In this document: piece by piece, positions 2,495-17,569 of the stretch
Layout of the letters: the number at the start of each line of letters is the position of its first letter
Position numbering within the stretch: the stretch's first letter is position 1
Source of the DNA: an uncultured Candidatus Saccharibacteria bacterium
GTDB taxonomy: Bacteria > Patescibacteriota > Minisyncoccia > Phycocordibacterales > PALSA-1337
Direction: 5' to 3'
NCBI GenBank assembly: GCA_964358005.1
Contig: CAYHNH010000001.1
Span: 78,775 to 142,774, forward strand
Length of the DNA: 64,000 nucleotides
Made by a program: the position numbers and the translations under genes
Notes under the pieces: model-generated
Told to the model about the DNA's origin: nothing
The model's database searches: none
Seen by the model: the letters and a program-made list of their open reading frames with translations, nothing else

Positions 2495-2618
2495 AGAGTT
2501 TGGACGAAAATAAGTATATACCTGTTTCTAGTTCTGCATACTTGTGGAGTGAGAAAAACTATGTTGATAAGTTGTGGACATTTGTTTTTCCGTAAATTTC
2601 CTGTAATATCTATCCATC
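2495..2618. promoter_or_regulatory. dnaA/rpmH divergent promoter region with weak DnaA-box-like motifs
   Basis: TTGTGGAGT, TTGTGGACA and CTATCCATC are each about 2 mismatches from the DnaA-box consensus. This is the classical autoregulated dnaA promoter position. Confidence 0.3.
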
Positions 2619-2753
2619 ATGTCAATCACTTACCAACCAAAGAAGCGAAAGCGCGCGAAGTCCCACGGTTTCCGTGTCCGAATGAAGACTCCAGGTGGAA
2701 AGAGCGCTCTTTCTAGGCGCCGCGCCAAAGGACGGAAGCGCATAGCCGTATAA
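2619..2753 (+). CDS. rpmH: 50S ribosomal protein L34
   Basis: The 44-aa product [44 protein letters not shown] is below the ORF-track size cutoff and was found by reading the sequence. It is followed by rnpA. Confidence 0.9.
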
Positions 2754-2777
2754 CAGCCCACGCGCTATAATCGGCTG

Positions 2778-3116
2778 ATGCTCAAGCGCTCTCAGAGGCT
2801 GTCCGGAAGCCAATTCGATTTGGTTATAAAAAAGGGGCGAGTCCTGCACTCCCCTCTTTTTATTGCCCGGATACTTTCGGGGGAAAGGAGCTCGTCTCGT
2901 GTTGCCGGCGTGGCACCGGTAAAGGTAGCCAAGACCTCGGCAGCGAGGCATCTCGTGAGGCGCAGGATATACGAAGCCGCGCGCCCGCTCATGAGCGAGG
3001 TTGCCCCAGGCAACCTAATCATTCTTCTTGCTAAACAACCAGCTATTGGACGCAAGCCGACTGATCTCCGCCAAGATATAAGGTCGCTTTTTGTTAAAGC
3101 CAAGCTTTTGCGCTAG
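2778..3116 (+). CDS. rnpA: Ribonuclease P protein component
   Basis: A 112-aa basic protein directly downstream of rpmH, with the RnpA-like pattern RLxxSxFDLVIKKGRVLHSPLFIARI. Confidence 0.85.
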   Translation: MLKRSQRLSGSQFDLVIKKGRVLHSPLFIARILSGERSSSRVAGVAPVKVAKTSAARHLVRRRIYEAARPLMSEVAPGNLIILLAKQPAIGRKPTDLRQDIRSLFVKAKLLR

Positions 3117-3127
3117 TATTACCGCAC

Positions 3128-3868
3128 ATGTATAACGAACTCATATTCCGCCCTCTGTATAACGGTCTCATCGGCATCATGAACCTTCTTCCATGGATAG
3201 ACGTCGGTATAGCCGTCTTCATCTTTACCGTTATTGTGAAGGTCATCCTGTACCCCCTCTCCAAATCTGCGCTTTTGACTCAGGTTCGCATGAAGGACAT
3301 AGAGCCAGAGGCGGCCAAGATACGCTCCCAATACGCGAAGGACAAACAACTACAAGCTCAAAAAGTCATGGAGCTCTATAAGACCAAAGGGGTGAAGCCT
3401 TTTTCTGGAGTTCTGTTGCTCATCATTCAGTTACCTATCCTTTTCGCTCTCATATCAGTCTTCTACAAGATAATCCCGACCATAGACGCGACTATCCTGT
3501 ATAGCTTCGTTTCAGTTCCCGTTCTCAAGACCATGTTCTTGGGGTTCATCGATCTCACCCAGCCAAGCCTTTACTTGGCTCTGGCGACGGGTGTTATCCA
3601 ATATCTCCAACTCAAATATTCCCTAGCTTCACAGCAAGCTGCGCCACAGTCGAACACTGGAGGTATGGCTAACATAGCCAACTCGATGAATACGCAGATG
3701 AAATATGCTATCCCGGTTCTAGCGGTGGTATCTATATATTGGATCATTCCGGCTACCTTCCCAGGAGCTTCATCGATAATAGCTGTCTACTGGATGACCA
3801 GCTCGCTTATGACCTTCTTGCAAGAGCTTGTGATACGGAAGAAACATTTGAAGACCGCAAAGGCCTAG
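3128..3868 (+). CDS. yidC: Membrane protein insertase, short YidC/Oxa1 form
   Basis: A 246-aa polytopic membrane protein with hydrophobic core helices and a YidC-like amphipathic region (EPEAAKIRSQYAKDKQLQAQKVMELYKTKGVKPFSG). It completes the conserved rpmH-rnpA-yidC synteny. Confidence 0.85.
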   Translation: MYNELIFRPLYNGLIGIMNLLPWIDVGIAVFIFTVIVKVILYPLSKSALLTQVRMKDIEPEAAKIRSQYAKDKQLQAQKVMELYKTKGVKPFSGVLLLIIQLPILFALISVFYKIIPTIDATILYSFVSVPVLKTMFLGFIDLTQPSLYLALATGVIQYLQLKYSLASQQAAPQSNTGGMANIANSMNTQMKYAIPVLAVVSIYWIIPATFPGASSIIAVYWMTSSLMTFLQELVIRKKHLKTAKA

Positions 3869-3890
3869 TAAACCCAATCACTAGGAGACA

Positions 3891-5156
3891 CTATGGTCTG
3901 ACAAGATCGAGCGACCATAGCGATAGGTCGTTTTTGTTCATGAAGAACATGAATTTGTCCTTAGAGTCGAGGGTTGGATTGAATACGTTGAGTACCCTGT
4001 CAGCCTTATCGATGAGAGAGGAGATGAGCTTGGCTTCTCCCGTCGTTGCGTTGACCTGCCAAATCTTGTCAGTCGTCGAAACGCTTCCGAGGTACCAATC
4101 ATCGGGATAGATCCCGCTCGGGAGTTCGCTGGGCACTCCACAGTAGGCTAGTTCCCTGTACAGGTTGCCCCACACGCATTTGTCCGAGAGCGTGCGGAAG
4201 ACTGCATCGGTGGTGGTCGCAGCCGATACCGAATATACGCCGGTAGCGATGGTTCCGTCCTTAGTGGAAGAGTAGAGGACATGTTTGCCTGTCCGGCTGA
4301 CTGCTGCCGTAAGGCCGTAAATAGGGCCAAGGATCTTTGTCCAGGCGCCGCTCTTAGGGTTGACGAAGTAGAGGAATCCCCCATAGTTGGCCGAAGGCTT
4401 GGTAGTGATGGCGATGATGTCATCTGCCGGCCAGGATACGTTTATGTCAGTAAGCGGTGTGGTGAAGATGCGCGTTGGAGCCGAAGCGCTAAATGAAGAT
4501 AGGTACCCCGCACCGGTGCCGTTCTCGTTTACGATGACGATGACACGCGAGGTATCCGGCGAGGCCGCGTAACCTATGACATTTCCGGATATATTCCTTC
4601 CGCGCAGCTCGTAAGGCGAGAATTGCGCTGTAGTCGAGGCCTTTTTGCTGGGCACAATGTCCGTATAGACAGTAGTCGGGTATAGATTACCGTCCTCGAA
4701 CATGGAAGCGATGAATGCTGTCAGATTCCTATTCCACACGCTCCTCACGATCTTAGGTACGACAGTATTAGAGAGCGTAGTAATCGCGGCCGAATCATAA
4801 GTCGCCTGGTAGACGTTCCCTCTCCCCCTGTCCACCCAGAGCACCTTCGTGGTCGTAGCTGTCGTCGAAGCGCCGTATCCACCCACAGGAGAGTCGCTAA
4901 GCAATCGCAGTGCTGGAATGCGTGCCAGTGCGCCGGGCTGTTGTGTAGTAGTCGTGGCAGTGCTTGTGGCCATTCCAGGGCGGGTAGTTCCCGGAGTAGC
5001 GGGCCGTCCCAAGGGCTGGAAGCCGACAGGCGGTTCCTGTCCTTCCGGTCCTAGAGGCACCTGCACCGGGCTCATCAGGAAGTACCAATATGCCCAGCCT
5101 ACGGCGATGAGCAGTATGACTATGAGCAAGGAGATTATGATGTTTCGGATCTTCAT
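3891..5156 (-). CDS. Membrane-anchored protein with a Thr/Pro-rich linker and a beta-propeller-like C-terminal domain (hypothetical)
   Basis: There is one N-terminal TM helix (IIISLLIVILLIAVGWAYWYF), a low-complexity TTRPGMATSTATTTTQQP linker, then about 300 aa rich in predicted beta-strand (TolB/WD-like). Confidence 0.5.
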   Translation of the reverse strand: MKIRNIIISLLIVILLIAVGWAYWYFLMSPVQVPLGPEGQEPPVGFQPLGRPATPGTTRPGMATSTATTTTQQPGALARIPALRLLSDSPVGGYGASTTATTTKVLWVDRGRGNVYQATYDSAAITTLSNTVVPKIVRSVWNRNLTAFIASMFEDGNLYPTTVYTDIVPSKKASTTAQFSPYELRGRNISGNVIGYAASPDTSRVIVIVNENGTGAGYLSSFSASAPTRIFTTPLTDINVSWPADDIIAITTKPSANYGGFLYFVNPKSGAWTKILGPIYGLTAAVSRTGKHVLYSSTKDGTIATGVYSVSAATTTDAVFRTLSDKCVWGNLYRELAYCGVPSELPSGIYPDDWYLGSVSTTDKIWQVNATTGEAKLISSLIDKADRVLNVFNPTLDSKDKFMFFMNKNDLSLWSLDLVRP

Positions 5157-5161
5157 TTGTT

Positions 5162-6448
5162 TTATCGTCTTTCAAGGCCTGCTAGCATCGCATCGATCTG
5201 TATCTGCGTAGTCTGTCTAAATTCAGAGTTTCTAATGGATGCAATGACAGAAGATGTGTAATTTTTTATGTTGTTTACGGCAATGGCTTTGTAGCCAGCG
5301 AACTGCGAATCATTCGACACTGTTAAGATATTGGTAACTACAGCTCTTCCAAAGTTTCCACCAGCTACTGCACCCACGGCGGCTAGAGTTCCCCCGCTTA
5401 CTCCACCCCCGAACGCACCTAAGGTGACTCCGCCTATTATAGTTCCAGCTCTGATCTCCATATCCTGTAGTGCCGCATGGAACGGACCTATGGAGGCATC
5501 CCCTATAGCCTTAACAACTTGGCTTTGCGTGTATGCCATAACAGACGCGTAGCGTGCGTAATCATCGATAGACGTTTTTAATATCGGGTCGTTGCTTAAA
5601 GTGTCCAGTTCCTGATTATATTTTGTCCTGAATGCCAATATCATTCTTTGGCAGGTCTCGAATGTGGCGCCGGCCGAGCATTTTATGATCTCATCATTCA
5701 TCACACCGACGGCGACTTTCACGGCAATAATTATTTTCTCTTTTTTTACCTGGTCTAGTAGGTTCAACCTGTCTAAACATAACGCTTCTATAGCCTCATC
5801 ACCCTTCGGTTCCTCGTCATTACAATCAACCCCGCCTGTGAGGGTCGCGACCCTAGCGTTTATCTCATCCGCTTGCCTCTGCAGACCTGCTGCAGTAGCG
5901 CGCGCCACGGTCACATCGGCAAGGATTTTCCTATTTGCTTCTTTTGTCCTGTCCAGGACACTTGCCGTGCTGGTCTCCAACATGGCGAAGAAGTCTGCTG
6001 TAGTAGCGTACCTCTCATAATTTATCTTAAGCGGAGCGACAAGGGTCTTGGGGATGGCGACCAGTCTGGGGTCTATGGTGCGTAATATGAGGTATGAGCA
6101 GAGGACCAGGAGCAGGCCGTAGACTGCGTTCTTGACCTTGTCCAGACCGGTTTTCTTGTCCTGCCAGGAGTCGGTGGTCATATACTGTAGGCCGCCGAAT
6201 ACGATCATGAATACGGCCCCTGCCGCCGCGATAGCTATGATCAGGTTGAAAATATACTGTATATAGTCCTGGAAATTGAATGAGGACCGCCCTTTTGCCA
6301 ACTCATCGGCTGTGCAGGTCACACCGTTTCCGGGGATGCACGGCAACGGCTCTAGAGCGACGTATTGCTGGCTCTGCGCCCAACCGATCGATGGTAGGAT
6401 CATGATGGTCAGCATCAGTACTAGTGAGATTTTTGTTTTTATTGCCAT
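5162..6448 (-). CDS. VirB2/TrbC-like pilin domain fused to a roughly 300-aa coiled-coil and Gly-rich extension
   Basis: Signal peptide MAIKTKISLVLMLTIMILPSIGWAQ, then two closely spaced TM helices (IFNLIIAIAAAGAVFMIVFGG and AVYGLLLVLCSYLIL) joined by a short loop, the T4SS pilin architecture. The C-terminus is Gly-rich (GGVTLGAFGGGVSGGTLAAVGAVAGGNFG). Confidence 0.45.
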   Translation of the reverse strand: MAIKTKISLVLMLTIMILPSIGWAQSQQYVALEPLPCIPGNGVTCTADELAKGRSSFNFQDYIQYIFNLIIAIAAAGAVFMIVFGGLQYMTTDSWQDKKTGLDKVKNAVYGLLLVLCSYLILRTIDPRLVAIPKTLVAPLKINYERYATTADFFAMLETSTASVLDRTKEANRKILADVTVARATAAGLQRQADEINARVATLTGGVDCNDEEPKGDEAIEALCLDRLNLLDQVKKEKIIIAVKVAVGVMNDEIIKCSAGATFETCQRMILAFRTKYNQELDTLSNDPILKTSIDDYARYASVMAYTQSQVVKAIGDASIGPFHAALQDMEIRAGTIIGGVTLGAFGGGVSGGTLAAVGAVAGGNFGRAVVTNILTVSNDSQFAGYKAIAVNNIKNYTSSVIASIRNSEFRQTTQIQIDAMLAGLERR

Positions 6449-6454
6449 GATGAT

Positions 6455-7543
6455 TTAAAAGGTGATAGGCGAGCTGGAAGCTGCGGCAGTGAATACGGCG
6501 CGGAATGCACCATTAGCACTCTGTAGTATCGATGTTTTGTTCGTGATGCGCAGCTCTATCGCGGTAGAGCCGACGGATCCTTCTGGTGCTCTCAGGGTCA
6601 CGGTTTGGTTCGATACGAGCTCCGGCCGCGACCTCCCGTTTATCATCCAGGCCATGTTGAGGTCCCCCAGACCGGTGGCAGGGGCATTGAAGCCGTACGG
6701 GATGGCCAATACACCCGTCTCTCTCTGTGTGTTGAGATACAAGGCATTGTTTATGGCCGTGTCGTACAAGGGGCCGTACAGTGGGTCATTCTTATAGAAT
6801 TTTACGAAGGGAGCAACAGGGTTCACTGAAACAGAACCGGCGCCTTGGGCGCTGCCGTCCCGGGTACTTACGCTGACTGATATGACATATGGTCTGGGTA
6901 TCATGCCGCCAGGTATGATCAGAGATTGTTTTCCATACCCAGAAGATCCTTCGATGATGTCCCCATTCTGCTCCCATCTATAGAGGAGAGATTTAGGGTC
7001 GTATTCGGTGCCAGCTGAATTGGCCAGATGAGGAATAGCAGCTACTTTGACGTCGTTTTGGTATGCGGTCGCGATCTTGCCCTGGAATGTCGGGGGCTTA
7101 TGTCCGGCCGGCTCGACGATCATATCAACTGAGCCGGAAGTCAGGGTGAGCGAGCTCTGCAGTGATTCGCCGGAGGGAGTCACCGCGGAGATGTTGATTG
7201 AGAGCGATTTGCCCAAAGCTGGAGCCTTGACGGTTATGATATTGGATCCTATGCCCTTTTCCACGACCTTACTCGCGACCGACCAAGTAAGGTTGGCTGA
7301 ATATATATCTATGCTGTAACTCCTTGCTGTAATGGTGACGCTCTGACCTGGCGCCGGATTCGAGATAGATGGAGTCAGCTCTATCCCCCCGACAACCGGG
7401 GTGATGCCCTGGGCGCTCACAGAAATAGTCGCGCTGAGTAACAGACCTGATATGACCAATATAATCCTAGTCCAGCTAGTGCGGCGTTGCATTCCTGCCA
7501 TTTTATCATGGAAGTCGGCCGCTGGTTCAGGAGTTATCACCAA
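6455..7543 (-). CDS. Secreted protein with Ig-like/beta-rich repeats (hypothetical)
   Basis: N-terminal signal/anchor (WTRIILVISGLLLSATISVSAQG), then a Ser/Thr/Gly-rich beta-rich sequence. It sits inside the T4SS-like locus. Confidence 0.5.
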   Translation of the reverse strand: MVITPEPAADFHDKMAGMQRRTSWTRIILVISGLLLSATISVSAQGITPVVGGIELTPSISNPAPGQSVTITARSYSIDIYSANLTWSVASKVVEKGIGSNIITVKAPALGKSLSINISAVTPSGESLQSSLTLTSGSVDMIVEPAGHKPPTFQGKIATAYQNDVKVAAIPHLANSAGTEYDPKSLLYRWEQNGDIIEGSSGYGKQSLIIPGGMIPRPYVISVSVSTRDGSAQGAGSVSVNPVAPFVKFYKNDPLYGPLYDTAINNALYLNTQRETGVLAIPYGFNAPATGLGDLNMAWMINGRSRPELVSNQTVTLRAPEGSVGSTAIELRITNKTSILQSANGAFRAVFTAAASSSPITF

Positions 7544-8045
7544 AATGTTGGGTAGGCTGCCTTACCCCACCCACATTCAGAGGTTGCCTGCCAGCAGCGT
7601 GGTTTACACTTTCAGTGTCAGCCCGTCTTATTCCTCCTTGATTGAGCGGTGCATTGCCGGGCACAGACGCTTTTATTCCAGTCTTATCCTCTAGTCTGGA
7701 GAGGACTATGACTACGGCAATTCCTACGATGAGGAGTGGGAACTCTTGAATGACCGGAATCAGCTCCGTGGCCATCGATATAAGAGAAGTGGCGAGGCGC
7801 CGCGCATTCAAGATGCCGTGCCCTTTGAAGTACAGGTATATGCTGACGAGTACCCAGAATACGGGAGCTACGATATCGCCGGCGATAGGGATCAAAGTCA
7901 CGATGTCGGCAACTGTCGCAAAGAACAACAGTCCTACTACTGCTGTATTTTTCAGCCTATAGTTGGTGCCCTTGTCGGTCACCGCCTTAAGGACGGCTCT
8001 TACAGTTTCTTTTTTCTCACTATCGGTCTGTCCTGTCTGAGCCAT
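7527..8045 (-). CDS. Small polytopic membrane protein (hypothetical)
   Basis: 172 aa with 3-4 predicted TM helices (VVGLLFFATVADIVTLIPIAGDIVAPVFWVLVSIYLYF; LLIVGIAVVIVL). It is adjacent to VirB4. Confidence 0.4.
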   Translation of the reverse strand: MAQTGQTDSEKKETVRAVLKAVTDKGTNYRLKNTAVVGLLFFATVADIVTLIPIAGDIVAPVFWVLVSIYLYFKGHGILNARRLATSLISMATELIPVIQEFPLLIVGIAVVIVLSRLEDKTGIKASVPGNAPLNQGGIRRADTESVNHAAGRQPLNVGGVRQPTQHFGDNS

Positions 8046-8069
8046 AATAAACCATTATAGCATCGGCGC

Positions 8070-9887
8070 TTATGCCCCCGCCTGTTCTAGGTCGCGCTTG
8101 GCTTTCTCTATCTCCATGACCTGGGCCGGGTTAGTCGTGATGATCTGGTCCTCCGTGTACGAGGCGCGTATCTGGATAGCCACATGTTTCAGTCCTACGA
8201 AGAATATACCCTCGCCCACATCCGACTCGAGCAGGAGGTACTTCTCTTCGTCTGTCAGATTGAACGTCTGTTGGATATGATCGATGATGGTCGGAGACTG
8301 CTTGAGCAGGATCTGGATCGAGGAGTTGGTGAGGATCGGCAGGCCATAAGGCGATTTTAGGAAGTCGTCCACGTCTTGAGTGATAGTGGCCAAGCCCAGG
8401 AAGTATTTGCGGCCGCGCTTGGCCAAACTGTACAGGAATGAAGCCGTATCTTCGGATTTCATCATCCACCAGGCCTCGTCGATGACCAAGAGCCTCTTCT
8501 TGCGGATCTTTCGGATGGCATTCCATATATAGTGCGTGACTATGTACATGGCAACAGGCTTGAGCTCGTCTTCCATGTCGCGTAGGGAGAAGACGATGAA
8601 TTTGTTGTTAATGTCCACATTCGATGGGCGGTTTATGAAGCCCGACCATGTGCCCTTCGTATACTTGGTCAGTCTCTGGACTAGCGAGTCAGCGCCTTCC
8701 ATGCCAGCCAGCACCAGTTCGAAGTCGGACAATAGCGGGGGCTCGATATTGTGGAAATTTGATTCCGGGGAGATGTCTTTGAGGGCGTATGTCTCGGTGA
8801 TGGCTCGGTCGATGATAGCGTCCTCTTCTTGCGACAAACCACCTAGCATGATGCGGAAGAGTCCCACCAAGTTGATGATATTGGAGCGCAATACATCCGA
8901 GCTAGACTCGTCCTCCCCCACTATAGGCAGGTCGAAAGGATTTATGTGGTGCTCGGAGTTAAGCGAGATATTGAAATATTTTCCGCCGGTGGCTTCTGAC
9001 ATGTACTCGTACTCCTTTTCAGGGTCAATGACTATGACATCGCCATCGAACATGAGTGTGCGCAGGATTTCCAGCTTGGTGCAGTAGGACTTACCGGCGC
9101 CGGCCACCGCGAAGGTCACGGAGTTGTAGTTTGCCAGCGAATAACGGTCAAATAGCACCAGCGAGGAGTTGTGGCGGTTTATCCCATAGAGGATGCCCTT
9201 GTCTGATGTGAGGTCGAATGACACGAACGGAAAGACGCTCGAGAGCGGCGAGGAGTTGAGCTTGGAATGCACCATGAGCTGATCATCACAGATCGGAATG
9301 ACGCTCTTGAACCCAGGTTCCTGCTGGAACAGCGCCGGCTTGAGGTACACGAGCTTTGATTCGAGGATGGATTTTATCTCGGACTCGAGCTTATCGAGCT
9401 CGCTCTCATTGTCGGCAAAGATGGTGAGGTATACTCCGACGTCGAAGAGGTGTTCCTGGGCCTGCATGAGCTGATCGCGCAAGGTTTCTAGGTCCTGATA
9501 TGCGGTGTCTAGGGCCGGGTCGCGGACCAGTCCCTTCTCTTCTCTTCTCGATATCTGGCTCTGTACCTCGGCGACCTTTTTCTGGAAATGGCGCAGGATC
9601 CTGGCCGTATCTACGGGATGTATGAATATGGAGGCATTGAATACCTTGTCGAGATTGATGATGGGGGCGAACCAGCTCTCATCCAGGAAGCGCGGGTAGG
9701 ATATGACGAAGAGGGTCCTGCCGACTTTTTCACCCAGGTTAAGCTCCTTGGGGCTTATCTTCAGTGCCGATGGGGCGATGACGTCCTTGAGCTCCAGGAC
9801 TCCTGCCTGATATATCTCCTCCGGAAGTATGGAGATGATGGGCGATTGCTCGTCTTTTTTGCCGAATAGTTTGGATATGAAGCTCAT
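8070..9887 (-). CDS. virB4: Type IV secretion/conjugation ATPase VirB4/TrbE family, C-terminal 605-aa portion including the ATPase domain
   Basis: Walker A AVAGAGKS and Walker B RLLVIDEAWWM are present, plus a VirB4-like linker/membrane-proximal region (VIAPSALKISPKELNLGEKVGRTLFVISYPRFLDESWF). Confidence 0.85.
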   Translation of the reverse strand: MSFISKLFGKKDEQSPIISILPEEIYQAGVLELKDVIAPSALKISPKELNLGEKVGRTLFVISYPRFLDESWFAPIINLDKVFNASIFIHPVDTARILRHFQKKVAEVQSQISRREEKGLVRDPALDTAYQDLETLRDQLMQAQEHLFDVGVYLTIFADNESELDKLESEIKSILESKLVYLKPALFQQEPGFKSVIPICDDQLMVHSKLNSSPLSSVFPFVSFDLTSDKGILYGINRHNSSLVLFDRYSLANYNSVTFAVAGAGKSYCTKLEILRTLMFDGDVIVIDPEKEYEYMSEATGGKYFNISLNSEHHINPFDLPIVGEDESSSDVLRSNIINLVGLFRIMLGGLSQEEDAIIDRAITETYALKDISPESNFHNIEPPLLSDFELVLAGMEGADSLVQRLTKYTKGTWSGFINRPSNVDINNKFIVFSLRDMEDELKPVAMYIVTHYIWNAIRKIRKKRLLVIDEAWWMMKSEDTASFLYSLAKRGRKYFLGLATITQDVDDFLKSPYGLPILTNSSIQILLKQSPTIIDHIQQTFNLTDEEKYLLLESDVGEGIFFVGLKHVAIQIRASYTEDQIITTNPAQVMEIEKAKRDLEQAGA

Positions 9888-10525
9888 GTTAGTTGTATCG
9901 GCTTCTCTGTTTCGCCTGGGTTAAAGATCTTGTAGAACAATTCTACCACTTCCTCGGTGCCAAGCTCGGCCGTGCGGATGCCACAGCGCACCAGACCCTG
10001 CTCTACTACGGCCACTCTTTGCTCTAGCTGGCTCTTGTATTCCTGGAATTTCTCCTCGGCGGAGGCGGTCTCCTTTTGGGTGGCTTCCCTCTGGGGCATC
10101 ATCCTGGATATGGGGTTTTTGCCGGCGCCCATGATCGGCGGGTCGTAGGGCACGACCACAAAAAAGCCCTTGGACATGATGTTGGTTGTTTCGACGAACG
10201 TTTTTATGAATTCTATGTACTCTCGGACCTGTATCTTCATGAGCTCAGTAGGCTGTTCCTTGTATCTGTCCTCGAGGAGAGCTATGTACGGCCTGATATC
10301 TAGCTTTTTCGACTGTATGTATATCTGTATCGAGAAATCGAGCGAGTTCAGGAAGTTCTGGAACTGCAAAAGTATGGCGCTCTGTTCGTCTGAGGACTTC
10401 AGGGCGAAGTTTAGCGAAGTCGCGAGGACGAGCGCGCGCATGCCGCCGCTCTTCAAGATGACGACCCCATCGCGTATCTCCTGGATGGGAACGAAGTTCT
10501 GGGTTGTCTGGGTTTGTGAAGCCAT
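9884..10525 (-). CDS. VirB4 N-terminal domain encoded as a separate 213-aa ORF
   Basis: FVPIQEIRDGVVILKSGGMRALVLATSLNFALKSSDEQSAILLQFQNFLNSLDFSIQIYIQSKK matches the N-terminal domain pattern of Gram-positive-type VirB4 (PrgJ/TcpF/Orf16-like). Its stop overlaps the downstream start as ATGA at 9884..9887. Confidence 0.6.
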   Translation of the reverse strand: MASQTQTTQNFVPIQEIRDGVVILKSGGMRALVLATSLNFALKSSDEQSAILLQFQNFLNSLDFSIQIYIQSKKLDIRPYIALLEDRYKEQPTELMKIQVREYIEFIKTFVETTNIMSKGFFVVVPYDPPIMGAGKNPISRMMPQREATQKETASAEEKFQEYKSQLEQRVAVVEQGLVRCGIRTAELGTEEVVELFYKIFNPGETEKPIQLT

Positions 10526-10959
10526 CAGCGTTGGTCTTTGTTAGAGTATATGCTCTCCTTTATATCTAGGCTCCATGAGAGGTCCTTCAGTTTGCTGTCC
10601 GAGATCTTGGGGACCATTATCGAGGCGTAATTCTTGGCCTGCTTCACTGCCTCCGCGGTCGTCGGTGGCTGGGGTTTGGGCTCTTTCTTCCATATATATA
10701 GTTTGGCTCCGAGCCAGAACCTTATTGCCGCTTCTAGCACTCCGATGAGCGGCTTGTTGTTCACCTTGTAGAAGGCTAAGGAGAGCGATAGCGCCATGAC
10801 TATCACTATAGGCAGTAATGACAGGATTATGCTGTTCAGCATGAAGTAGATCACGAATGAGAGCCCTGCTCCTCCAGCGACGTAGATGAATTGCTTCAAC
10901 GTCAGTGGGCCAAAGATCTTGTCCTCTACTTCTATGAATTGAGGTACCTGAAATCGCAT
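10525..10959 (-). CDS. PrgI/VirB3-like small membrane protein
   Basis: 144 aa. The N-terminus MRFQVPQFIEVEDKIFGPLTLKQFIYVAGGAGLSFVIYF has the PrgI-family pattern (F.EKI.G.LT.RQ), followed by two TM helices. It sits immediately upstream of VirB4. Confidence 0.5.
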   Translation of the reverse strand: MRFQVPQFIEVEDKIFGPLTLKQFIYVAGGAGLSFVIYFMLNSIILSLLPIVIVMALSLSLAFYKVNNKPLIGVLEAAIRFWLGAKLYIWKKEPKPQPPTTAEAVKQAKNYASIMVPKISDSKLKDLSWSLDIKESIYSNKDQR

Positions 10960-11008
10960 CTAGGATATTATAGCGACAAGCGAGGACCAAAGCGAGCGCT
11001 TGCGCTCA

Positions 11009-11626
11009 CTAGACCAATGGTTCCCTGTAGGGGTCGCCGCTCGTCGAAGCTCCTGGTACTGCCGGGCTCGGCTTCTGTGTCACTTTTTCGGTAGGAACGG
11101 CGGTCGAACTGCGTAGGAGCTGTTCGACGAGGGATTCCCTTTTCTGTTCTGGTGCCGTGGTTGGTGCCTGCGGTGCGCTTCTAGGGGCCGTCGGTTGCGG
11201 GTTTTCGAGGCCTTCCAGCACGTCTTTGCGGTTTATCGGTACGATTGAGCCGTCATCAGCCTGGGGATTCCCAACGGCTGGCGTTTTCTCTATCGTGAAG
11301 TCGCCGGCCTGTTCGAGTGCCTTGTTGCCTTCGGTACTTGTAAGCTCGGTACCCTGTAGTTCCTCACGGAATACCTTTATGAGTTCTTCGTTCACGCTTT
11401 GGGTTATGCCATCTGCTGTTTCTGAATCAATTTTAAGTAAGTCGGTTATGTTCTGGGTGAAGTCTGCTGGTTGGCTCAAGCCCAAAAGGATCTTCTTTAT
11501 CTCTACGTCTAGCTCTCCCAATTGATCAAGGTTAAGACCGAACTTTTCACCAACGGATTCGACTGCCGTGTATATCCGGGGGTCCCGAGACAAGTTTTTT
11601 ATGCCGCCTATTGTTTGTGGGTTCAT
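11009..11626 (-). CDS. Acidic hypothetical protein within the T4SS-like locus
   Basis: A 205-aa ORF on the same strand, between the VirB6-like and PrgI-like genes. No recognisable motif. Confidence 0.4.
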   Translation of the reverse strand: MNPQTIGGIKNLSRDPRIYTAVESVGEKFGLNLDQLGELDVEIKKILLGLSQPADFTQNITDLLKIDSETADGITQSVNEELIKVFREELQGTELTSTEGNKALEQAGDFTIEKTPAVGNPQADDGSIVPINRKDVLEGLENPQPTAPRSAPQAPTTAPEQKRESLVEQLLRSSTAVPTEKVTQKPSPAVPGASTSGDPYREPLV

Positions 11627-11633
11627 ATTTTTA

Positions 11634-13571
11634 TCATAACCAATCGCTATTTGAAGGCTTGTTCACAAAGCCTTCTGCTTTGTGTGGGAGTCTCGGTCCT
11701 GCCGGACCAACTCGCCAGCCACTAATCTTGTTGCCGATGGCCTTCTTCAGAACAGTGTCGATGCCTTCATCCCCCATCGCCTTTAGCTGTCCTGCCGTAA
11801 GGTGCTCTATCACTTTTTCATCCTCAAGGAGAGATGGTCCAGGTACCCTGGAGGTGACATCCAGGAGGTCCTTTCCGTTCATTTCGCCCGTCATGTGCTT
11901 TATTTGCTCGGTCTCTTCCCTCGTTACGGAATCCTCAAGGGCCTTGCCTCTGAGATCCAATATCTTGTTCTTATCTTCATCAGAAATGTCCTCAGATTTT
12001 GCGATCGAGGCAAAATCTTCTCGGCTGGCGTGCTTGAGTATCTGCATGACTGCGTCATCGTCCTTTTCTTTTAGTTTTGCCGTTATCGCGCCAGTCTTTT
12101 CCTTGGTGCTCATGACGCTGACTACCGTCTTCAGGTCGGCGTGAGTGCCAGTACGAGCCATGACAGCATTGAGTTTGCTATTGAAGTTGTTCTTCCTATC
12201 GATGATCTTGCCCTCCTTGCTAACCTCCTTCTGCTCCTTCTGGCGTTCCTCATGCGATCTCATGCCACCCATCTTGCTCTTGGCCAGAGCGCCGGTGGTA
12301 GCTCCTCGTATGTCGCGTGCCAGGAGAGTGTTCCCGAGTTTTGTACCCGCCATTGCCTTGTCTAGCCTTGCTGCCCCAGCTCCGATTGTCTTGGTACCAG
12401 CATAGCCACCAATAGTGCTCCAGACCTTGCCGGCACCGAACTTATCTGCAGCCTTATTTAGTATCGATATAGTCTTGCCCGCTATGCTGGCCGCCGCAAC
12501 CAAGGGAAGGTTGAGCAGGAAAATGACGATGGTGGCATTGACTGCTAGGAGCATGTATTCTCTGTACCAAGGAGCCGCGCTCACGGCTGCCGTCGTGCTT
12601 TGCGGGTCGAACATCGGCGTGGTCGTGAGGACATTCAAGGCCAGATACATGAGTAGCAGGTACACGGGCATGAACAGCAGCATGCTCTTGTAGAGATCCC
12701 ACCACTTGCCAGCGTAGGTTTTCACCTCTGGGGCCAAGAAAGAGATGAAATATACTGGCGAGAATGCCAAGAGGAACAGCAGGATGACGAATCGGGCGAT
12801 GAAGGCAAATGCCGCGGCGGCAAAGCTTATCGTAGCCACGAATTCTATGATGATGCCTATTATACCGACCATGATTATTTTGAAAGTATCGTTGAACAGT
12901 CCAGTGGTACCGTTGCTCGATCCTAGCCCGGATGCCGCGTTGCTGGCCGAGAAGTCATAGAGCTTGGTTATCTTCAGTGAGTTCATGAATATATCGGAAA
13001 GGCCGCCGTCTCGTATGAGAACGCCGTTTTCGAGGCCAATCTGCTCGTTGCCGAGAGCCATCCCACCGGTTGCCGTATTCGCTGGAGCGATAGCGTTGTA
13101 GAGCTGCATGGAAACTATGTTCGACGCGTCTATGCCGAGACCCGTGAGGAAGAAGCTGAAGTTGATCAGGATGCCGGCCATGACGATGTTCTTTATGAGC
13201 TCCTTGAACTTCGGATCCTGCAGTCCGAGGATGAGCTGGACGGAGGCGTAGAGCAGGAAGAAGATTATGAATATGCCGCTTATGTCCCGGATCGCCTTCC
13301 AGGTCGTATATATGGCTGGCGCATTGTCTACGAAAGCTTTTATATTGAGCGTGAGCCTGATCGAAACGTTGAGGAGGAAGCCGGCGATGGCCAATATCCA
13401 GCTCATTATCTTTAGTCCTGTGTTGAAGAACATGGCGACGAGCTCATTGAAGGTGCCGTATGCGATATTGAAGAGGCTCCACTGCGCATGTGCCTGGTGG
13501 GTGGTCGCCACGAAGACAACAAATGCCAGGAGTAGGACGGCGCCGATTTTTATGAGGTGTTTCTTCTTCAT
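11634..13571 (-). CDS. VirB6/TrbL-like polytopic membrane protein with a long hydrophilic C-terminal tail
   Basis: Likely start MKKKHLIKIGAVLLLAFVVFV (signal/anchor), then at least 6 TM helices and a charged C-terminal region of about 250 aa. Architecture and position match VirB6-family channel proteins. Confidence 0.55.
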   Translation of the reverse strand: MKKKHLIKIGAVLLLAFVVFVATTHQAHAQWSLFNIAYGTFNELVAMFFNTGLKIMSWILAIAGFLLNVSIRLTLNIKAFVDNAPAIYTTWKAIRDISGIFIIFFLLYASVQLILGLQDPKFKELIKNIVMAGILINFSFFLTGLGIDASNIVSMQLYNAIAPANTATGGMALGNEQIGLENGVLIRDGGLSDIFMNSLKITKLYDFSASNAASGLGSSNGTTGLFNDTFKIIMVGIIGIIIEFVATISFAAAAFAFIARFVILLFLLAFSPVYFISFLAPEVKTYAGKWWDLYKSMLLFMPVYLLLMYLALNVLTTTPMFDPQSTTAAVSAAPWYREYMLLAVNATIVIFLLNLPLVAAASIAGKTISILNKAADKFGAGKVWSTIGGYAGTKTIGAGAARLDKAMAGTKLGNTLLARDIRGATTGALAKSKMGGMRSHEERQKEQKEVSKEGKIIDRKNNFNSKLNAVMARTGTHADLKTVVSVMSTKEKTGAITAKLKEKDDDAVMQILKHASREDFASIAKSEDISDEDKNKILDLRGKALEDSVTREETEQIKHMTGEMNGKDLLDVTSRVPGPSLLEDEKVIEHLTAGQLKAMGDEGIDTVLKKAIGNKISGWRVGPAGPRLPHKAEGFVNKPSNSDWL

Positions 13572-13575
13572 GTTT

Positions 13576-15096
13576 TTACAGGCGGTCACATGCTGTCTGG
13601 AATGCGGCGGCATCGGCGGTGAATGTTACTACGCGACCTCTGACATAGTTCAGGTCTGACTGGGAGGAGGTAACCAATGCCGCGACGTTCGATCCAGATA
13701 GGAATTGGCTGAGGCCATTGACCTGAGTGTTTATGTTTTGAGCTACCTGATCGATCGGATTATTTCCAATTACAGACGGTGGTGTGGATAGACGAATGAC
13801 TATGTAATCTCGCCTACTGGTCAATTCGTTAATAAAACTGCCCACCTCGTATTGTTGTGTCGCTATCAGGCTGAGGTTTGTCTGGGCGTCTTGTATCTTC
13901 TGTTGGGTCTGGCTGATGCCTAGTTTTCCTGTAAAGCACGCCTGTGCTTGGCTGTATTTGGTGTAGGCTTCGTTTACCAGGACGATGGCGTCATCGTAGT
14001 TTCTCTTAGCCATGCTTAAAGCACCCGCATCTGGATTGGAGCCATCGCCTGTCCCTCCTGTTGGGGTTAACGTGTTCGCATATACCTGTTGTAGGTACAA
14101 TCTCCCGCTTCCAGGTCCAGATGATCCGGAGCTCATAGCGTAAAGTCCTCTTTGCAGAGTCTTGGTTACAAGTTGCGATACGAGCGCGCTCACCACAGCG
14201 TTTATGTTGTCAGCGAGCTCGAGCTGTCTTGCCGGAGACTGGAGAGAGCTGTTCAATGATGCTTCTATGACAGAGCCAGGTGTTTTGTATTGGCACTTCT
14301 GCAGGTGGCCGTCCGGTCCGTCCTTGTAGGCTACACCGCCCGAGGAAGTCCCCCTGTAATTTCCGGCCTCTTCATCGGATATCCCGGCGTCTTCACATGA
14401 TTCCCATGAGAGAAAGCCTTTTCCCTGTATAAGGTCGCTCTGCACAAAGGCTTTCTTTTGTGAGACAGCGAACATCTGGTCGCTCCTTGCCATAAGGATG
14501 GTTCCTATCGGATTGTTCTGGTCCTCTGTTGTTAACGCAATGAAGGCTGGCCAGCCACCCTGCTTGAAATCTCCTTTTATGAAGCCGTCTATGCTCGCGC
14601 CGTTGACGTAACTGCCCTGATAGTTGTCTATGACGGTGCTTAGAGTGCAGGTATATTTTCGACGATTTGGCATACCGTCACCGGGGGTTTCAAGCTGTTG
14701 GATAGCTAGGGCGACCTTTATGTCTACGCTCCAAGGCGAGCACAGCCTTTTGAGCGGGCCGCTGTCTGAGATGAATTGACCGGTGAGCTGGTCAGCCGCG
14801 TCTAGGAAAAATCCTTCAGGATTAGTGAGGAATGAAGGCTTGCCCTTGAAGCCAGTGTTGATCCAATTAACCACGGACACTGTCATCTGATTCAGGACCT
14901 GCTTGGCTGCCATGTAGGCTAGTCTATCGCCGAGGAAATCCTTCCAGTTTCTCGCCTGATTAAAAAAGGCGTTGGCGATACCTGTCGGGCTAGTATCGCC
15001 GACCTGGAGGGTGGCGAGCTGCGCGTTTGCGATCTGCGAATTGGTTGTAAAAATAATACAGGAAATAATCAAAAACACCGTTGCGAGGTATTTCAT
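13576..15096 (-). CDS. Secreted hypothetical protein (likely start MKYLATVFLIISCIIFTTNSQIANAQ)
   Basis: Signal peptide, then a soluble Gly/Ser/Thr-rich domain with several Cys. Same strand, between the VirB6-like gene and rsmA. Confidence 0.5.
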   Translation of the reverse strand: MKYLATVFLIISCIIFTTNSQIANAQLATLQVGDTSPTGIANAFFNQARNWKDFLGDRLAYMAAKQVLNQMTVSVVNWINTGFKGKPSFLTNPEGFFLDAADQLTGQFISDSGPLKRLCSPWSVDIKVALAIQQLETPGDGMPNRRKYTCTLSTVIDNYQGSYVNGASIDGFIKGDFKQGGWPAFIALTTEDQNNPIGTILMARSDQMFAVSQKKAFVQSDLIQGKGFLSWESCEDAGISDEEAGNYRGTSSGGVAYKDGPDGHLQKCQYKTPGSVIEASLNSSLQSPARQLELADNINAVVSALVSQLVTKTLQRGLYAMSSGSSGPGSGRLYLQQVYANTLTPTGGTGDGSNPDAGALSMAKRNYDDAIVLVNEAYTKYSQAQACFTGKLGISQTQQKIQDAQTNLSLIATQQYEVGSFINELTSRRDYIVIRLSTPPSVIGNNPIDQVAQNINTQVNGLSQFLSGSNVAALVTSSQSDLNYVRGRVVTFTADAAAFQTACDRL

Positions 15097-15136
15097 GGGT
15101 GCACGGGGTTTTCTGTTTTGTATATTTACCATGTGT

Positions 15137-15976
15137 TTACGAGCCTATTCGGACTCCTGCCATCAGTAGATAGTCGTTAACCTCATAAAGAAGGCTGGCT
15201 ATATTCTGCATCGCTGCCACCCCGAGGCTGATTCCAGCTAATCCGCTTACAGGGTCTGTGTCTATGCGCCTTATCGCTTCAGCGTTGTGAATCGCCAGAC
15301 TTACGTTGTTCATCAGCTCCAGATGATATTTGGCAAGAGGGATCGGGGTATTTATAGTCTTGAGCGAAGCCAGGAGACTCTTGTAGTCTTCGATGATGGG
15401 GTCGATCTTTTTTAAGATGAGCATGTCGTTGGTCGTAAGCGCCTCCGTAGCTATCTGTGCCTCATTCTCTTTCGGCATGTGAGAACCAAATGTATTTGTT
15501 AAGACTTTGCCATAGTCATTCAATGCTACTGTGGTGCTCGCCGATAGTTTGATGTCTGAGATCGAAAATGTTTTAGGTAAAGGCAGTTTTGCTAGCGCTT
15601 CGGCCGTGACTTGACCCATGATGCTTGCAACGGAATCGGCGTCCGCGATAAGCCCTGATTGTTGTAACTCTTCATATTTGGTGAGGAATGATCGTCCGAG
15701 AAGGTCGGTGGCTGTAAGTTTTTCCGGTTCATTCGGCGTGGCCTTTGCCGGGCTCTTAAAAGTCGTGCTAGTAGAGTTTTTGTCTATGAATTGTTGCCGC
15801 CAGTTCGTATTTTCTGGAAGAGCTTCCGGCGTCGCCAGTGATATGCCGACGAGCTCGCTGCCTATCGGTGCTTTTATTCCTGATGAATCACCGCGGACGT
15901 AGAAAGCCACGCCTCCCACAGCGAGGATGCATACGACAAGAATCACGACGGTTTGCTTGCGTGGGTATACGGCCAT
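15137..15976 (-). CDS. Membrane-anchored hypothetical protein
   Basis: Single N-terminal TM helix (VVILVVCILAVGGVAFYV) and an extracytoplasmic alpha-rich domain. It is the first gene of the T4SS-like block. Confidence 0.5.
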   Translation of the reverse strand: MAVYPRKQTVVILVVCILAVGGVAFYVRGDSSGIKAPIGSELVGISLATPEALPENTNWRQQFIDKNSTSTTFKSPAKATPNEPEKLTATDLLGRSFLTKYEELQQSGLIADADSVASIMGQVTAEALAKLPLPKTFSISDIKLSASTTVALNDYGKVLTNTFGSHMPKENEAQIATEALTTNDMLILKKIDPIIEDYKSLLASLKTINTPIPLAKYHLELMNNVSLAIHNAEAIRRIDTDPVSGLAGISLGVAAMQNIASLLYEVNDYLLMAGVRIGS

Positions 15977-16023
15977 ATTCCTGGGGGAATTATAGCAAGA
16001 TTGGCTTGAAATAAGGCCGAAAG

Positions 16024-16812
16024 TTATTCACACAACAAGTCGAACCACTGCTTGAGAGTGAGATCTTCAGCCCGGACCTTCGGGTTGAGGTAAATTTTTG
16101 CAAATTTTTGATCGATTTTGTCCAAGTCCATCTCTTTCAGGTTGCTTATCAGGAGTTTTCTCTTATGCGCAAACCCGGCCTTTACGATATCGAAGAATCT
16201 CCTTATTTCTAGGCCTTTTTCGGTAAACAAGCGGTCAGATATGTCCTCGATGGACAGTATCGCCGAGTCCACGTTTGGCGGCGGATTGAATGCTCCCCTT
16301 GGGACCTTCGCGGCTATACGGGGCGTCCCGAAGGCCTTGACCGAGATCGAGAGGATGCTTTCCTTGCCGTTTCTCGCAACGATCCTATCAGCCACTTCCT
16401 TCTGGACTAATAGCACCATCCTGTTCGGTCGTGGACCGTATTCTAGGAATGATTCCAGAATAGCTCCTGTTATGTAGTAAGGAATATTCGCGACCACTGC
16501 GTATCCTCCCTCTTCGAAGCCCATCTTTGCTCGGTCCGTCTCCAGGATATCCGCAGAGTGGACCGTCAGGTTGCCCGAGGCGATCTCGGAAGCGAATTTT
16601 TCCCTGAGCAGGACGTTTGCGCGGTCATCTTTTTCCACAGCTATCACTTTTACTCCGCTTTTTAGCAGTGCACCGGTTAGCACACCTGTACCCGGACCGA
16701 TCTCGAGCACAACCTCCCCATTTTTCAGGTTGGCCGTCTCGATGATCTTCGCCAGCGCTGAAGGCGAATTGAGAAAATGTTGTCCCAGAGATTTTTTTGG
16801 TTGAAGATGCAT
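16024..16812 (-). CDS. rsmA: 16S rRNA (adenine1518-N6/adenine1519-N6)-dimethyltransferase
   Basis: LGQHFLNSPSALAKII, VLEIGPGTGVLT (SAM motif) and ANIPYYIT (NIPY substrate motif). Confidence 0.9.
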   Translation of the reverse strand: MHLQPKKSLGQHFLNSPSALAKIIETANLKNGEVVLEIGPGTGVLTGALLKSGVKVIAVEKDDRANVLLREKFASEIASGNLTVHSADILETDRAKMGFEEGGYAVVANIPYYITGAILESFLEYGPRPNRMVLLVQKEVADRIVARNGKESILSISVKAFGTPRIAAKVPRGAFNPPPNVDSAILSIEDISDRLFTEKGLEIRRFFDIVKAGFAHKRKLLISNLKEMDLDKIDQKFAKIYLNPKVRAEDLTLKQWFDLLCE

Positions 16813-16819
16813 GTGCGTG

Positions 16820-17566: not shown

Positions 17567-17569
17567 GTA

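What the first reader, a model, noticed from the sequence alone, without database searches (positions are those of the whole stretch)
8070..10525. VirB4 conjugative ATPase encoded as two abutting ORFs (N-terminal domain 213 aa plus ATPase 605 aa) joined by an ATGA overlap
The 213-aa ORF at 9884..10525 carries the VirB4 N-terminal domain (FVPIQEIRDGVVILKSGG...NFALKSSDEQSAILLQF...IQIYIQSKK). The 605-aa ORF at 8070..9887 resumes at the expected linker (VIAPSALK...VGRTLFVISYPRFL) and carries Walker A/B. Together they total 818 aa, a normal VirB4 length. The junction is a 4-nt ATGA overlap, with the two frames offset by one nucleotide. This is either a genuine domain-split VirB4 with translational coupling, a 1-nt frameshift (sequencing error or programmed), or recent pseudogenisation. 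Naturally split VirB4 is rarely described.
Basis: partly seen in the sequence, partly recalled or inferred. Interest (0 to 1): 0.6.

Follow-up and report, generated by a model that had tools for sequence, protein, structure and literature searches.

The report
Conserved two-gene VirB4 in Patescibacteria
The secretion-system motor protein VirB4 really is encoded here as two adjoining genes, but this split is the normal, strongly conserved and already published arrangement (TrsD-like protein plus VirB4) in thousands of Patescibacteria genomes and in Gram-positive plasmids, so it is not an error or an oddity.

Summary
In detail: ORFs 9884..10525(-) (213 aa) and 8070..9887(-) (605 aa) share an ATGA stop/start overlap.

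The split is genuine, not a frameshift or pseudogene.
- All 80 related species genomes keep two genes, with junctions from ATGA to about 190-nt spacers in all three phases.
- At least 8000 protein clusters resemble the 213-aa protein. The 120 best are all 208-222 aa.
- Both genes are under strong purifying selection.

The 213-aa protein is only the first half of the VirB4 N-terminal domain. It maps colinearly with the 605-aa ORF onto full-length VirB4 profiles. It also aligns to residues 2-214 of naturally fused ~790-aa VirB4s from a Colwellbacteria-type lineage. Its model matches only R388 TrwK/VirB4 significantly among solved structures.

The protein is the known TrsD / Pfam PF26593 "TraC-like" family. 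A 2025 paper reports TrsD homologues beside virB4 as the most abundant T4SS component in Patescibacteria. Firmicutes plasmids carry the same PrgI, N-piece, ATPase order, split at the same point.

The locus is a chromosomal, dnaA-proximal Patescibacteria T4SS.

Verdict: real but ordinary and already known. Low interest.

The parts
9884..10525 (-). TrsD-like / 'TraC-like' (PF26593) protein, 213 aa. It is the detached first half of the VirB4 N-terminal domain, soluble, with no TM segment.
8070..9887 (-). VirB4 ATPase piece, 605 aa. It comprises a 27-aa leader, the second half of the N-terminal domain (about residues 28-230) and the P-loop C-terminal domain (about residues 230-590).
   Evidence: CD1110 positions 185-733/752, 366 bits against a cutoff of 325; P-loop_TraG E 1.6e-26; PDB 4AG5 E 3.4e-38 over residues 229-584. 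Also 56% identity to P0175 residues 225-791.
9884..9887 (-). ATGA stop/start overlap between the two VirB4 pieces.
   Evidence: The same overlap is found in 10 of 80 species; the others have spacers of 1 to about 190 nt.
9084..9104 (-). Walker A motif (AGAGKSY, residues 262-268).
8469..8492 (-). Walker B motif (LLVIDEAW, residues 466-473).
10525..10959 (-). PrgI / VirB3-like membrane protein, 144 aa. Its stop overlaps the TrsD-like start by 1 nt (TGATG).
   Evidence: PF12666 E 2.3e-11; TM-like segments; junction sequence.
11634..13613 (-). Polytopic membrane protein, 659 aa. VirB6-like candidate, inferred only.
   Evidence: About 8 or more hydrophobic segments. No Pfam or NCBIfam hit.
5162..6448 (-). 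Protein with a T4SS pilin (VirB2-like) domain at residues 61-123 and a long C-terminal extension.
   Evidence: PF18895 E 1.7e-9. Weak match to the Mbov_0395 pilin-like family.
3891..15976 (-). Eleven co-directional, tightly packed ORFs (gaps -38 to +49 nt): the T4SS-like gene cluster.
1154..2494 (-). dnaA. It marks the origin-proximal chromosomal context. yidC lies at 3128..3868(+) and ksgA at 16024..16812(-).

Best explanation
This is the standard Patescibacteria type IV secretion locus, in which VirB4 is made as two polypeptides from consecutive genes.

The 213-aa TrsD-like protein is the first half of the VirB4 N-terminal domain. The 605-aa protein is the second half of that domain plus the P-loop ATPase domain.

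The gene order prgI(virB3-like) - trsD-like - virB4 follows the N-to-C order of the membrane anchor, the N-terminal subdomain and the motor. The overlapping stop/start signals (TGATG, ATGA) favour coupled, roughly equimolar translation.

Inferred mechanism: the free N-piece docks non-covalently on the ATPase piece to rebuild a complete VirB4 N-terminal domain. In R388 that domain is wrapped by VirB3 and forms the VirB4-VirB4 dimer interface. The assembled ATPase energises a pilin-containing, non-conjugative T4SS needed for the epibiotic lifestyle.

Shown here: the split, its conservation, the homology, the colinearity and the purifying selection. Inferred: physical reassembly, translational coupling and system function.
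For: Conservation of the split:
- At least 8000 clusters of homologues; the best 120 are 208-222 aa and all carry PF26593.
- 80 of 80 species-representative genomes have separate trsD-like and virB4 genes. ATGA occurs in 10, spacers of 1-12 nt in 47, and longer spacers in 22 of the 79 scored. The three relative phases are used 33/27/19 times.
- Purifying selection: pN 0.07-0.13 and 0.04-0.08 against pS 0.6-0.9.

Homology and colinearity:
- Colinear mapping on VirB4 profiles.
- At least 117 clusters of naturally fused 775-807-aa relatives, with residues 2-214 matching the N-piece and 225-791 matching the ATPase piece.
- The fused model aligns end to end with R388 TrwK/VirB4 (E 1e-27, TMq 0.66).
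- The 213-aa model's only significant PDB hits are TrwK chains.

Wider context:
- The same three-gene order and the same split point occur in Geobacillus, Clostridium botulinum and Bacillus thuringiensis plasmids.
- Literature: TrsD homologues lie next to virB4 in Patescibacteria, are essential in Southlakia, and the T4SS sits near dnaA (PMC12102498).
- VirB3 wraps the VirB4 N-terminal domain and the dimer interface is formed by that domain (PMC9259494).
- Local context: PrgI, a pilin-domain protein and dnaA.
Against: - No direct evidence that the two proteins bind each other or that translation is coupled. 22 of 79 relatives have spacers longer than 12 nt, so coupling cannot be obligatory.
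- The match to the NCBIfam TrsD model is far below its cutoff (24.8 bits against 200).
- Sequence profiles do not detect the TrwK N-terminal domain.
- Both AF2 models have only medium confidence (pLDDT about 74).
- Raw reads could not be inspected.
Confidence: 0.87

Rival explanations
1. Assembly or sequencing frameshift: a single 818-aa virB4 gene was artificially broken by a 1-nt indel.
For: The two frames differ by one nucleotide at the junction. True disrupted fused genes do exist in other MAGs (L085, L086).
Against: - The split occurs in 80 of 80 species, with different junction lengths and phases and with real stop codons and spacers.
- The N-piece C-terminus (..IQ[IL]T*) and the ATPase-piece N-terminus (MSF..) are each conserved as termini.
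- Thousands of stand-alone ~213-aa proteins exist.
- An identical junction appears in a second assembly.
- Complete Firmicutes plasmid sequences show the same split.
Confidence: 0.01
2. Programmed -1 ribosomal frameshift at the ATGA produces a fused full-length VirB4 in addition to, or instead of, the two pieces.
For: The downstream frame is -1 relative to the upstream frame. Fused VirB4s are functional in a related lineage.
Against: - There is no slippery heptamer before the stop (CAACTAACATGA).
- Relatives use all three phases and spacers of up to about 190 nt, so no conserved frameshift geometry exists.
- The fused relatives lack the 27-aa leader of the ATPase piece and have a different linker.
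Confidence: 0.02
3. Recent pseudogenisation of a formerly fused virB4.
For: One relative (L046) has an in-frame stop in the N-piece. Two MAGs have broken fused genes.
Against: - Both ORFs are intact and full length relative to hundreds of orthologues.
- Both are 62-88% identical in protein to relatives, with saturated synonymous sites, which indicates strong purifying selection.
- The N-piece homologue is reported as essential in Southlakia.
Confidence: 0.01
4. The TrsD-like protein is homologous to the VirB4 N-terminus but now acts as an independent factor (for example an assembly chaperone, regulator, or adaptor to PrgI or other partners) rather than simply completing the VirB4 N-terminal domain.
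For: [quoted passage not shown]
- Many family members carry unrelated C-terminal extensions of 60-230 aa.
- Firmicutes versions carry their own N-terminal TM helix.
- 22 of 79 loci have long spacers.
Against: - Strict colinearity with fused VirB4.
- Near-universal adjacency in the clade of the window (80 of 80).
- Parallel conservation of the two genes.
- A whole lineage tolerates covalent fusion.
Confidence: 0.09

Closest known systems
TrsD homologue + VirB4 pair of the Patescibacteria T4SS (Quinonero-Coronel et al. 2025, PMC12102498; Wang et al. 2023 for Southlakia epibionticum)
   Same: The same phylum-level clade, the same gene pair next to PrgI/VirB3 and VirB2-like pilin genes, and the same chromosomal position near dnaA, yidC and ksgA.
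   Different: Nothing substantive. The paper calls the N-piece 'TrsD', notes remote homology to the VirB4 N-terminus and says no function is assigned. In the passages searched it does not use the words 'split' or 'two genes' and applies 'fused' only to VirB3-VirB4. The fused Colwellbacteria-type forms seen here are a small addition.
TrsD/TrsE of pGO1 and TraD/TraE of pSK41 and pIP501 (MPF_FATA, pGO1 subclass); NCBIfam NF041427
   Same: A small protein of about 200 aa encoded immediately upstream of a shortened VirB4-like ATPase. The profile matches residues 4-125 (E 1.6e-5).
   Different: The score is far below the subfamily cutoff (24.8 against 200 bits). Those systems are plasmid-borne and conjugative, with a relaxase and coupling protein. 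These plasmids were not retrieved here.
PrgI - 'TraC family/hypothetical' - 'DUF87/ATP-binding' gene triplets on Firmicutes plasmids (Geobacillus pGspE55-1, C. botulinum pCBG, B. thuringiensis BTB_502p)
   Same: The same three-gene order and overlapping junctions (11-14 nt). The N-piece is 24-30% identical over at least 92% of the query, and the ATPase piece 25-28% identical from its very N-terminus. The ATPase piece starts with a similar M-[SFL]-F-x-K-K motif, so the split point is the same.
   Different: The Firmicutes N-pieces are longer (257-328 aa) and start with a TM helix. The window's has none.
Full-length VirB4/TraC ATPases (R388 TrwK; CD1110 family; Mycoplasma Mbov_0397; fused Colwellbacteria-type VirB4)
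   Same: The same fold and domain order. The two window ORFs together cover the profiles colinearly.
   Different: These are one polypeptide, whereas here there are two. [quoted passage not shown]
VirB3-VirB4 fusion proteins of some proteobacterial T4SSs
   Same: They illustrate that the VirB3, VirB4 N-terminal domain and ATPase modules are joined or separated in different lineages while keeping their order.
   Different: The opposite event (fusion rather than fission). None were found in Patescibacteria. This comparison rests on the cited paper, not on a test here.

Membership tests
VirB4/TraC-type T4SS ATPase (605-aa ORF) | P-loop C-terminal domain with Walker A and B motifs, homologous to solved VirB4 C-terminal domains | tested here: met
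   PF19044 E 1.6e-26 and AAA_10. PDB 4AG5 E 3.4e-38 over residues 229-584. Motifs located.
VirB4/TraC-type T4SS ATPase (605-aa ORF) | Curated family score reached (NCBIfam CD1110-type VirB4-like ATPase) | tested here: met
   366 bits against a cutoff of 325, covering profile positions 185-733/752 only.
VirB4/TraC-type T4SS ATPase (605-aa ORF) | Complete N-terminal domain on the same polypeptide | tested here: not met
   Profile positions about 1-185 (CD1110) and 1-268 (Mbov_0397) are absent from the 605-aa ORF and are supplied by the upstream 213-aa ORF. Fused relatives confirm the colinearity.
VirB4/TraC-type T4SS ATPase (605-aa ORF) | Encoded with other T4SS components (VirB3, VirB6, pilin) | tested here: met
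   PrgI/VirB3-like and a T4SS_pilin-domain protein lie in the same cluster. The VirB6 candidate rests on hydrophobicity alone.
VirB4/TraC-type T4SS ATPase (605-aa ORF) | ATP hydrolysis and hexamer formation | not testable with these tools
   Requires biochemistry or cryo-EM.
TrsD / Pfam PF26593 'TraC-like' N-terminal VirB4-related protein (213-aa ORF) | Match to the family profile | tested here: met
   PF26593 is recorded on the identical proteins P0001 and P0002 and on the gene in L087. The model is absent from the local Pfam copy, which returned 0 hits.
TrsD / Pfam PF26593 'TraC-like' N-terminal VirB4-related protein (213-aa ORF) | NCBIfam TrsD/TraD subfamily (NF041427) cutoff | tested here: not met
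   24.8 bits against a cutoff of 200 (E 1.6e-5). This makes it a distant relative of the staphylococcal subfamily, not a member of it.
TrsD / Pfam PF26593 'TraC-like' N-terminal VirB4-related protein (213-aa ORF) | Homology to the N-terminal part of full-length VirB4 | tested here: met
TrsD / Pfam PF26593 'TraC-like' N-terminal VirB4-related protein (213-aa ORF) | Gene immediately upstream of virB4 and downstream of the virB3-like gene | tested here: met
   Window; 80 of 80 related loci; Firmicutes plasmids.
Patescibacteria chromosomal T4SS (PMC12102498) | VirB4, TrsD, PrgI and a VirB2-like pilin clustered near dnaA on the chromosome | tested here: met
   The closest homologues are all Patescibacteria, Parcubacteria or Paceibacteria MAGs.
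Patescibacteria chromosomal T4SS (PMC12102498) | No relaxase or coupling protein in the cluster | tested here: inconclusive
   No relaxase or VirD4 domain was found among the ORFs scanned between 1154 and 21568. Several ORFs have no hit at all, and the rest of the window was not scanned.
Programmed ribosomal frameshift site | Slippery heptamer plus a conserved phase relation between the two ORFs | tested here: not met
   No slippery sequence. All three phases and variable spacers occur in relatives.

The most novel reading that the evidence does not exclude
The detachment of the first half of the VirB4 N-terminal domain may be functionally exploited rather than neutral. As a free subunit, the TrsD-like piece could be loaded on only a subset of ATPase protomers, by analogy with the 'central' and 'outside' VirB4 copies of R388 that bind VirB3 or VirB8 tails respectively. 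It could also be exchanged or regulated separately. Either would give the Patescibacteria and Firmicutes-plasmid machines an inner-membrane complex different from the proteobacterial one. The Colwellbacteria-type lineage, which appears to have secondarily re-fused the genes (rough NJ tree), would be a natural control.
Probability: 0.15. Interest if true: 0.45.

Novelty: already known. Interest (0 to 1): 0.15.

Why it matters
For annotation, the two ORFs should be kept as two genes (a TrsD-like / TraC-like N-terminal subunit and the VirB4 ATPase). They should not be merged, flagged as a frameshift or marked as a pseudogene.

Biologically, the locus is one more example of the origin-proximal T4SS that is widespread in Patescibacteria and reported as essential in Southlakia epibionticum. 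The published 'TrsD, function unknown' can be read as the missing first half of the VirB4 N-terminal domain. In R388 that domain contacts VirB3 and forms the VirB4 dimer interface.

The Rosetta-stone evidence from fused relatives, and the shared split point with Firmicutes plasmids, add modest support for a monoderm-plasmid origin of the system. None of this opens a new question.

Tried and rejected
- **Local Pfam scan of the 213-aa ORF:** no hit even at E of 10 or less. The relevant model, PF26593, is not in the local copy. The NCBIfam scan and precomputed annotations filled the gap.
- **Sequence profile against PDB:** only the C-terminal domain is detected. The N-terminal domain of TrwK is invisible at sequence level.
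- **Internal duplication of the N-terminal domain:** I asked whether its two halves are a tandem duplication, so that the split would fall between repeats. hhalign gave probability 0.4%, so this is not supported.
- **Recurrent recent fission:** two ~600-aa proteins 77-88% identical to fused P0175 suggested this. Their loci show broken fused genes (frame change, missing residues), not clean splits.
- **pSK41 record AF051917:** not in the plasmid collection, so TrsD/TraD was compared through the NCBIfam profile only.
- **AlphaFold database search (afdb50):** library not available.
- **Promoter and terminator scan of 3000..17000:** counts not above shuffled expectation, so uninformative.
- **Guglielmini 2014 main text:** it does not mention TrsD by name in the passages searched. 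The statement about homology to the VirB4 N-terminus is taken from the 2025 paper that cites it.
Full report
**Observation**

The two ORFs are exactly as described: 9884..10525(-) encodes 213 aa and 8070..9887(-) encodes 605 aa. On the coding strand the junction reads CAA CTA ACA TGA GCT. The TGA stop of the first ORF and the ATG of the second therefore share three bases, forming an ATGA overlap. Walker A (AGAGKSY, residues 262-268) and Walker B (LLVIDEAW, residues 466-473) are present in the 605-aa ORF. The upstream 144-aa ORF (10525..10959) is a PrgI/VirB3-like membrane protein (PF12666, E 2.3e-11). Its stop overlaps the start of the 213-aa ORF by one base (TGATG). Three consecutive genes are thus joined by stop/start overlaps.

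**Is the split real?**

Yes. The evidence is as follows.
- A search with the 213-aa protein found at least 8000 protein clusters. The best 120 are all 208-222 aa, 76-100% identical, from Patescibacteria, Parcubacteria or Paceibacteria MAGs, and all carry Pfam PF26593.
- A scan of one genome per GTDB species returned 80 loci at 61-87% identity. In all 80, a virB4 homologue of about 600-635 aa follows as a separate ORF where the contig allows.
- The junction is ATGA in 10 loci, a spacer of 1-12 nt in 47, and a spacer of 14-194 nt in 22. All three relative reading phases are used (33/27/19).
- A 1-nt error, a programmed frameshift or a recent pseudogene cannot produce that pattern. There is also no slippery heptamer at the junction.
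- Against the closest relatives, synonymous sites are saturated (pS 0.6-0.9). Non-synonymous differences are 0.07-0.13 for the small gene and 0.04-0.08 for the large gene, so both are under strong purifying selection.
- A metagenome contig from ENA is 100% identical over 2555 nt, including the junction. It may come from the same sample.

**Is the 213-aa protein part of VirB4?**

Yes, by four independent lines.
1. *NCBIfam profiles of full-length VirB4 proteins are matched colinearly.*
   - The 213-aa ORF hits the Mbov_0397 family at positions 99-233/894 (E 1.7e-11), the CD1110 family at 1-105/752 and TrbE at 53-202/852.
   - The 605-aa ORF hits the Mbov_0397 family at 269-893/894 and the CD1110 family at 185-733/752. 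The CD1110 match scores 366 bits, above the curated cutoff of 325.
2. *Natural fusions exist.*
   - An exhaustive search found a 797-aa protein, P0175. Its residues 2-214 are 43% identical to the 213-aa ORF, and its residues 225-791 are 56% identical to residues 28-593 of the 605-aa ORF.
   - P0175 is encoded after prgI and near dnaA, yidC and rnpA in a Patescibacteria MAG.
   - Searching with P0175 found at least 117 further clusters of 775-807-aa fused VirB4s with PF26593 plus the ATPase domains. Those carrying a source name are labelled Candidatus Colwellbacteria, Patescibacteria group or Parcubacteria group.
3. *The fused protein has the full VirB4 fold.* Its AF2 model (pLDDT 74.8) aligns end to end with R388 TrwK/VirB4 (E 1e-27, TMq up to 0.66, about 830-880 columns).

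**Where the break lies**

The solved C-terminal domain of Thermoanaerobacter VirB4 (4AG5) aligns to residues 229-584 of the 605-aa ORF. TrwK residue 446 aligns to residue 255. In TrwK the N-terminal domain is residues 15-400 (PMC9259494).

The 605-aa ORF therefore still holds about 200 residues of N-terminal domain. [quoted passage not shown] The two halves show no sequence similarity to each other (hhalign probability 0.4%).

**Comparison with what is known**

- *Catalogued family.* The small protein belongs to a catalogued family: Pfam PF26593 'TraC-like'. It is distantly related to the TrsD/TraD proteins of staphylococcal plasmids (NF041427, E 1.6e-5, far below the cutoff).
- *Published description.* Quinonero-Coronel et al. 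2025 (PMC12102498) report TrsD as the most abundant T4SS component in Patescibacteria.
  - They found 2,272 homologues, of which 1,664 are associated with virB4.
  - They note that the Southlakia homologue is essential, that no function is assigned, and that the T4SS often lies near dnaA with ksgA and rnpA nearby.
- *Match to the window.* The window fits this description. dnaA is at 1154..2494, yidC at 3128..3868 and ksgA at 16024..16812. A LysM-M23 peptidase is at 18919..20037 and a T4SS_pilin-domain protein at 5162..6448. Eleven tightly packed co-directional ORFs run from 15976 to 3891.
- *Outside Patescibacteria.* The 213-aa protein matches 456 plasmid records, of which 292 are Bacillus. 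In Geobacillus pGspE55-1, C. botulinum pCBG and B. thuringiensis BTB_502p the order is PrgI, then an N-piece of 257-328 aa, then a DUF87/ATP-binding ATPase of 620-661 aa, with 11-14-nt overlaps. The ATPase pieces begin MFKFKKEK, MLFKKKKK and MSFFKKKK, like the window's MSFISKLFGKK. They align with the 605-aa ORF from residue 3-6 onward in Geobacillus, so the split point is the same. The Firmicutes N-pieces carry an N-terminal TM helix that the window's protein lacks.

**Direction of change**

In a rough neighbour-joining tree of the N-piece rooted on the Firmicutes plasmids, the fused sequences form one clade nested seven nodes deep among split forms. This suggests that the split is ancestral for the Patescibacteria system and that the Colwellbacteria-type fusion is derived. 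The tree has no support values, so the result is tentative. Two apparent 'splits' inside the fused clade (P0289, P0385) are broken fused genes with frame changes and missing residues, not clean fissions.

**Mechanism (inferred)**

In R388, VirB3 wraps the N-terminal domain of the central VirB4 subunits. [quoted passage not shown]

The most economical reading is that the 213-aa protein binds the 605-aa protein to rebuild this domain and links it to PrgI. The overlapping stop/start codons then promote coupled, near-equimolar synthesis. The last 13 nt before the virB4 ATG (CGATACAACTAAC) show no GGAGG-like Shine-Dalgarno motif.

Coupling cannot be essential, because 22 of 79 relatives have spacers longer than 12 nt. 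A minority possibility is that the free piece has acquired an independent adaptor or regulatory role.

**Verdict**

The 'genuine split' reading is right, and the error, frameshift and pseudogene readings are wrong. The split is common, conserved and already in the literature and the domain databases. Interest is low.

Noticed in passing
window 16820..18751 (-), stop at 17570..17572: A UvrD/PcrA-type helicase is interrupted by a single in-frame TAA inside a conserved motif (FFERKEVKDVL*YVKASLNPE). This gives ORFs of 393 aa (UvrD-helicase plus the start of UvrD_C) and 248 aa (the rest of UvrD_C) in the same frame. It could be a nonsense mutation, a sequencing error or read-through. Unlike the VirB4 case, this one does look like a disruption.
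   Followed up: partly
L074:4644-8441 (JBAQUS010000011.1, Minisyncoccia MAG): The virB4 ORF is 1266 aa. An in-frame insertion of about 660 aa sits directly after the Walker A lysine-serine (residue 267) and contains LAGLIDADG-like sequence. It is probably an intein with a homing endonuclease in the VirB4 P-loop.
   Followed up: partly
L046:4001-4621: One relative has a single in-frame TAG (GGMR*VIL) in an otherwise well-conserved trsD-like gene (74% identity). This is a nonsense mutation or a MAG error.
   Followed up: partly
L081:544-2937; proteins P0175 and P0271-P0389: A sizeable Patescibacteria lineage (those with a source name are labelled Candidatus Colwellbacteria, Patescibacteria group or Parcubacteria group) encodes VirB4 as one 775-807-aa protein. 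A short linker (RGEVIGRQGMG in P0175) replaces the N-piece C-terminus and the 27-aa leader of the ATPase piece. A rough NJ tree suggests a secondary fusion.
   Followed up: yes
L085:1282-3458 and L086:1362-3843: In two MAGs close to the fused clade, the N-terminal part of virB4 lies in another frame with residues missing. These are broken fused genes (pseudogenes or assembly errors), and gene callers report them as ~600-aa VirB4.
   Followed up: yes
proteins P0144-P0267 (about 34 of the 150 representatives): Many TrsD-like family members are 280-443 aa. Their C-terminal (some N-terminal) extensions show no similarity to VirB4. What these extensions are is unknown.
   Followed up: no
window 5162..6448 (-): The T4SS_pilin (VirB2-like) domain occupies only residues 61-123 of a 428-aa protein. 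The long C-terminal extension, which includes a glycine-rich stretch near residues 330-380, is unusual for a pilin. The domain also weakly matches the Mycoplasma ICE Mbov_0395 pilin-like family. This parallels the Mbov_0397 VirB4 match of the two ORFs under study.
   Followed up: no
window 1154..3868 and 16024..20037: The T4SS cluster is flanked by dnaA and yidC on one side. On the other side are ksgA, the broken uvrD and a LysM-Peptidase_M23 protein, a possible VirB1-like wall hydrolase. This matches the origin-proximal context published for Paceibacteria.
   Followed up: partly
L082:3890-4846, L083:3815-4588, L084:3875-4861: The Firmicutes plasmid N-pieces begin with a hydrophobic TM-like helix (for example MAVIVGVLLFLLMVGGMGYAVYW), which the Patescibacteria TrsD-like proteins lack. 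Membrane anchoring of the split VirB4 may therefore differ between the two groups.
   Followed up: partly
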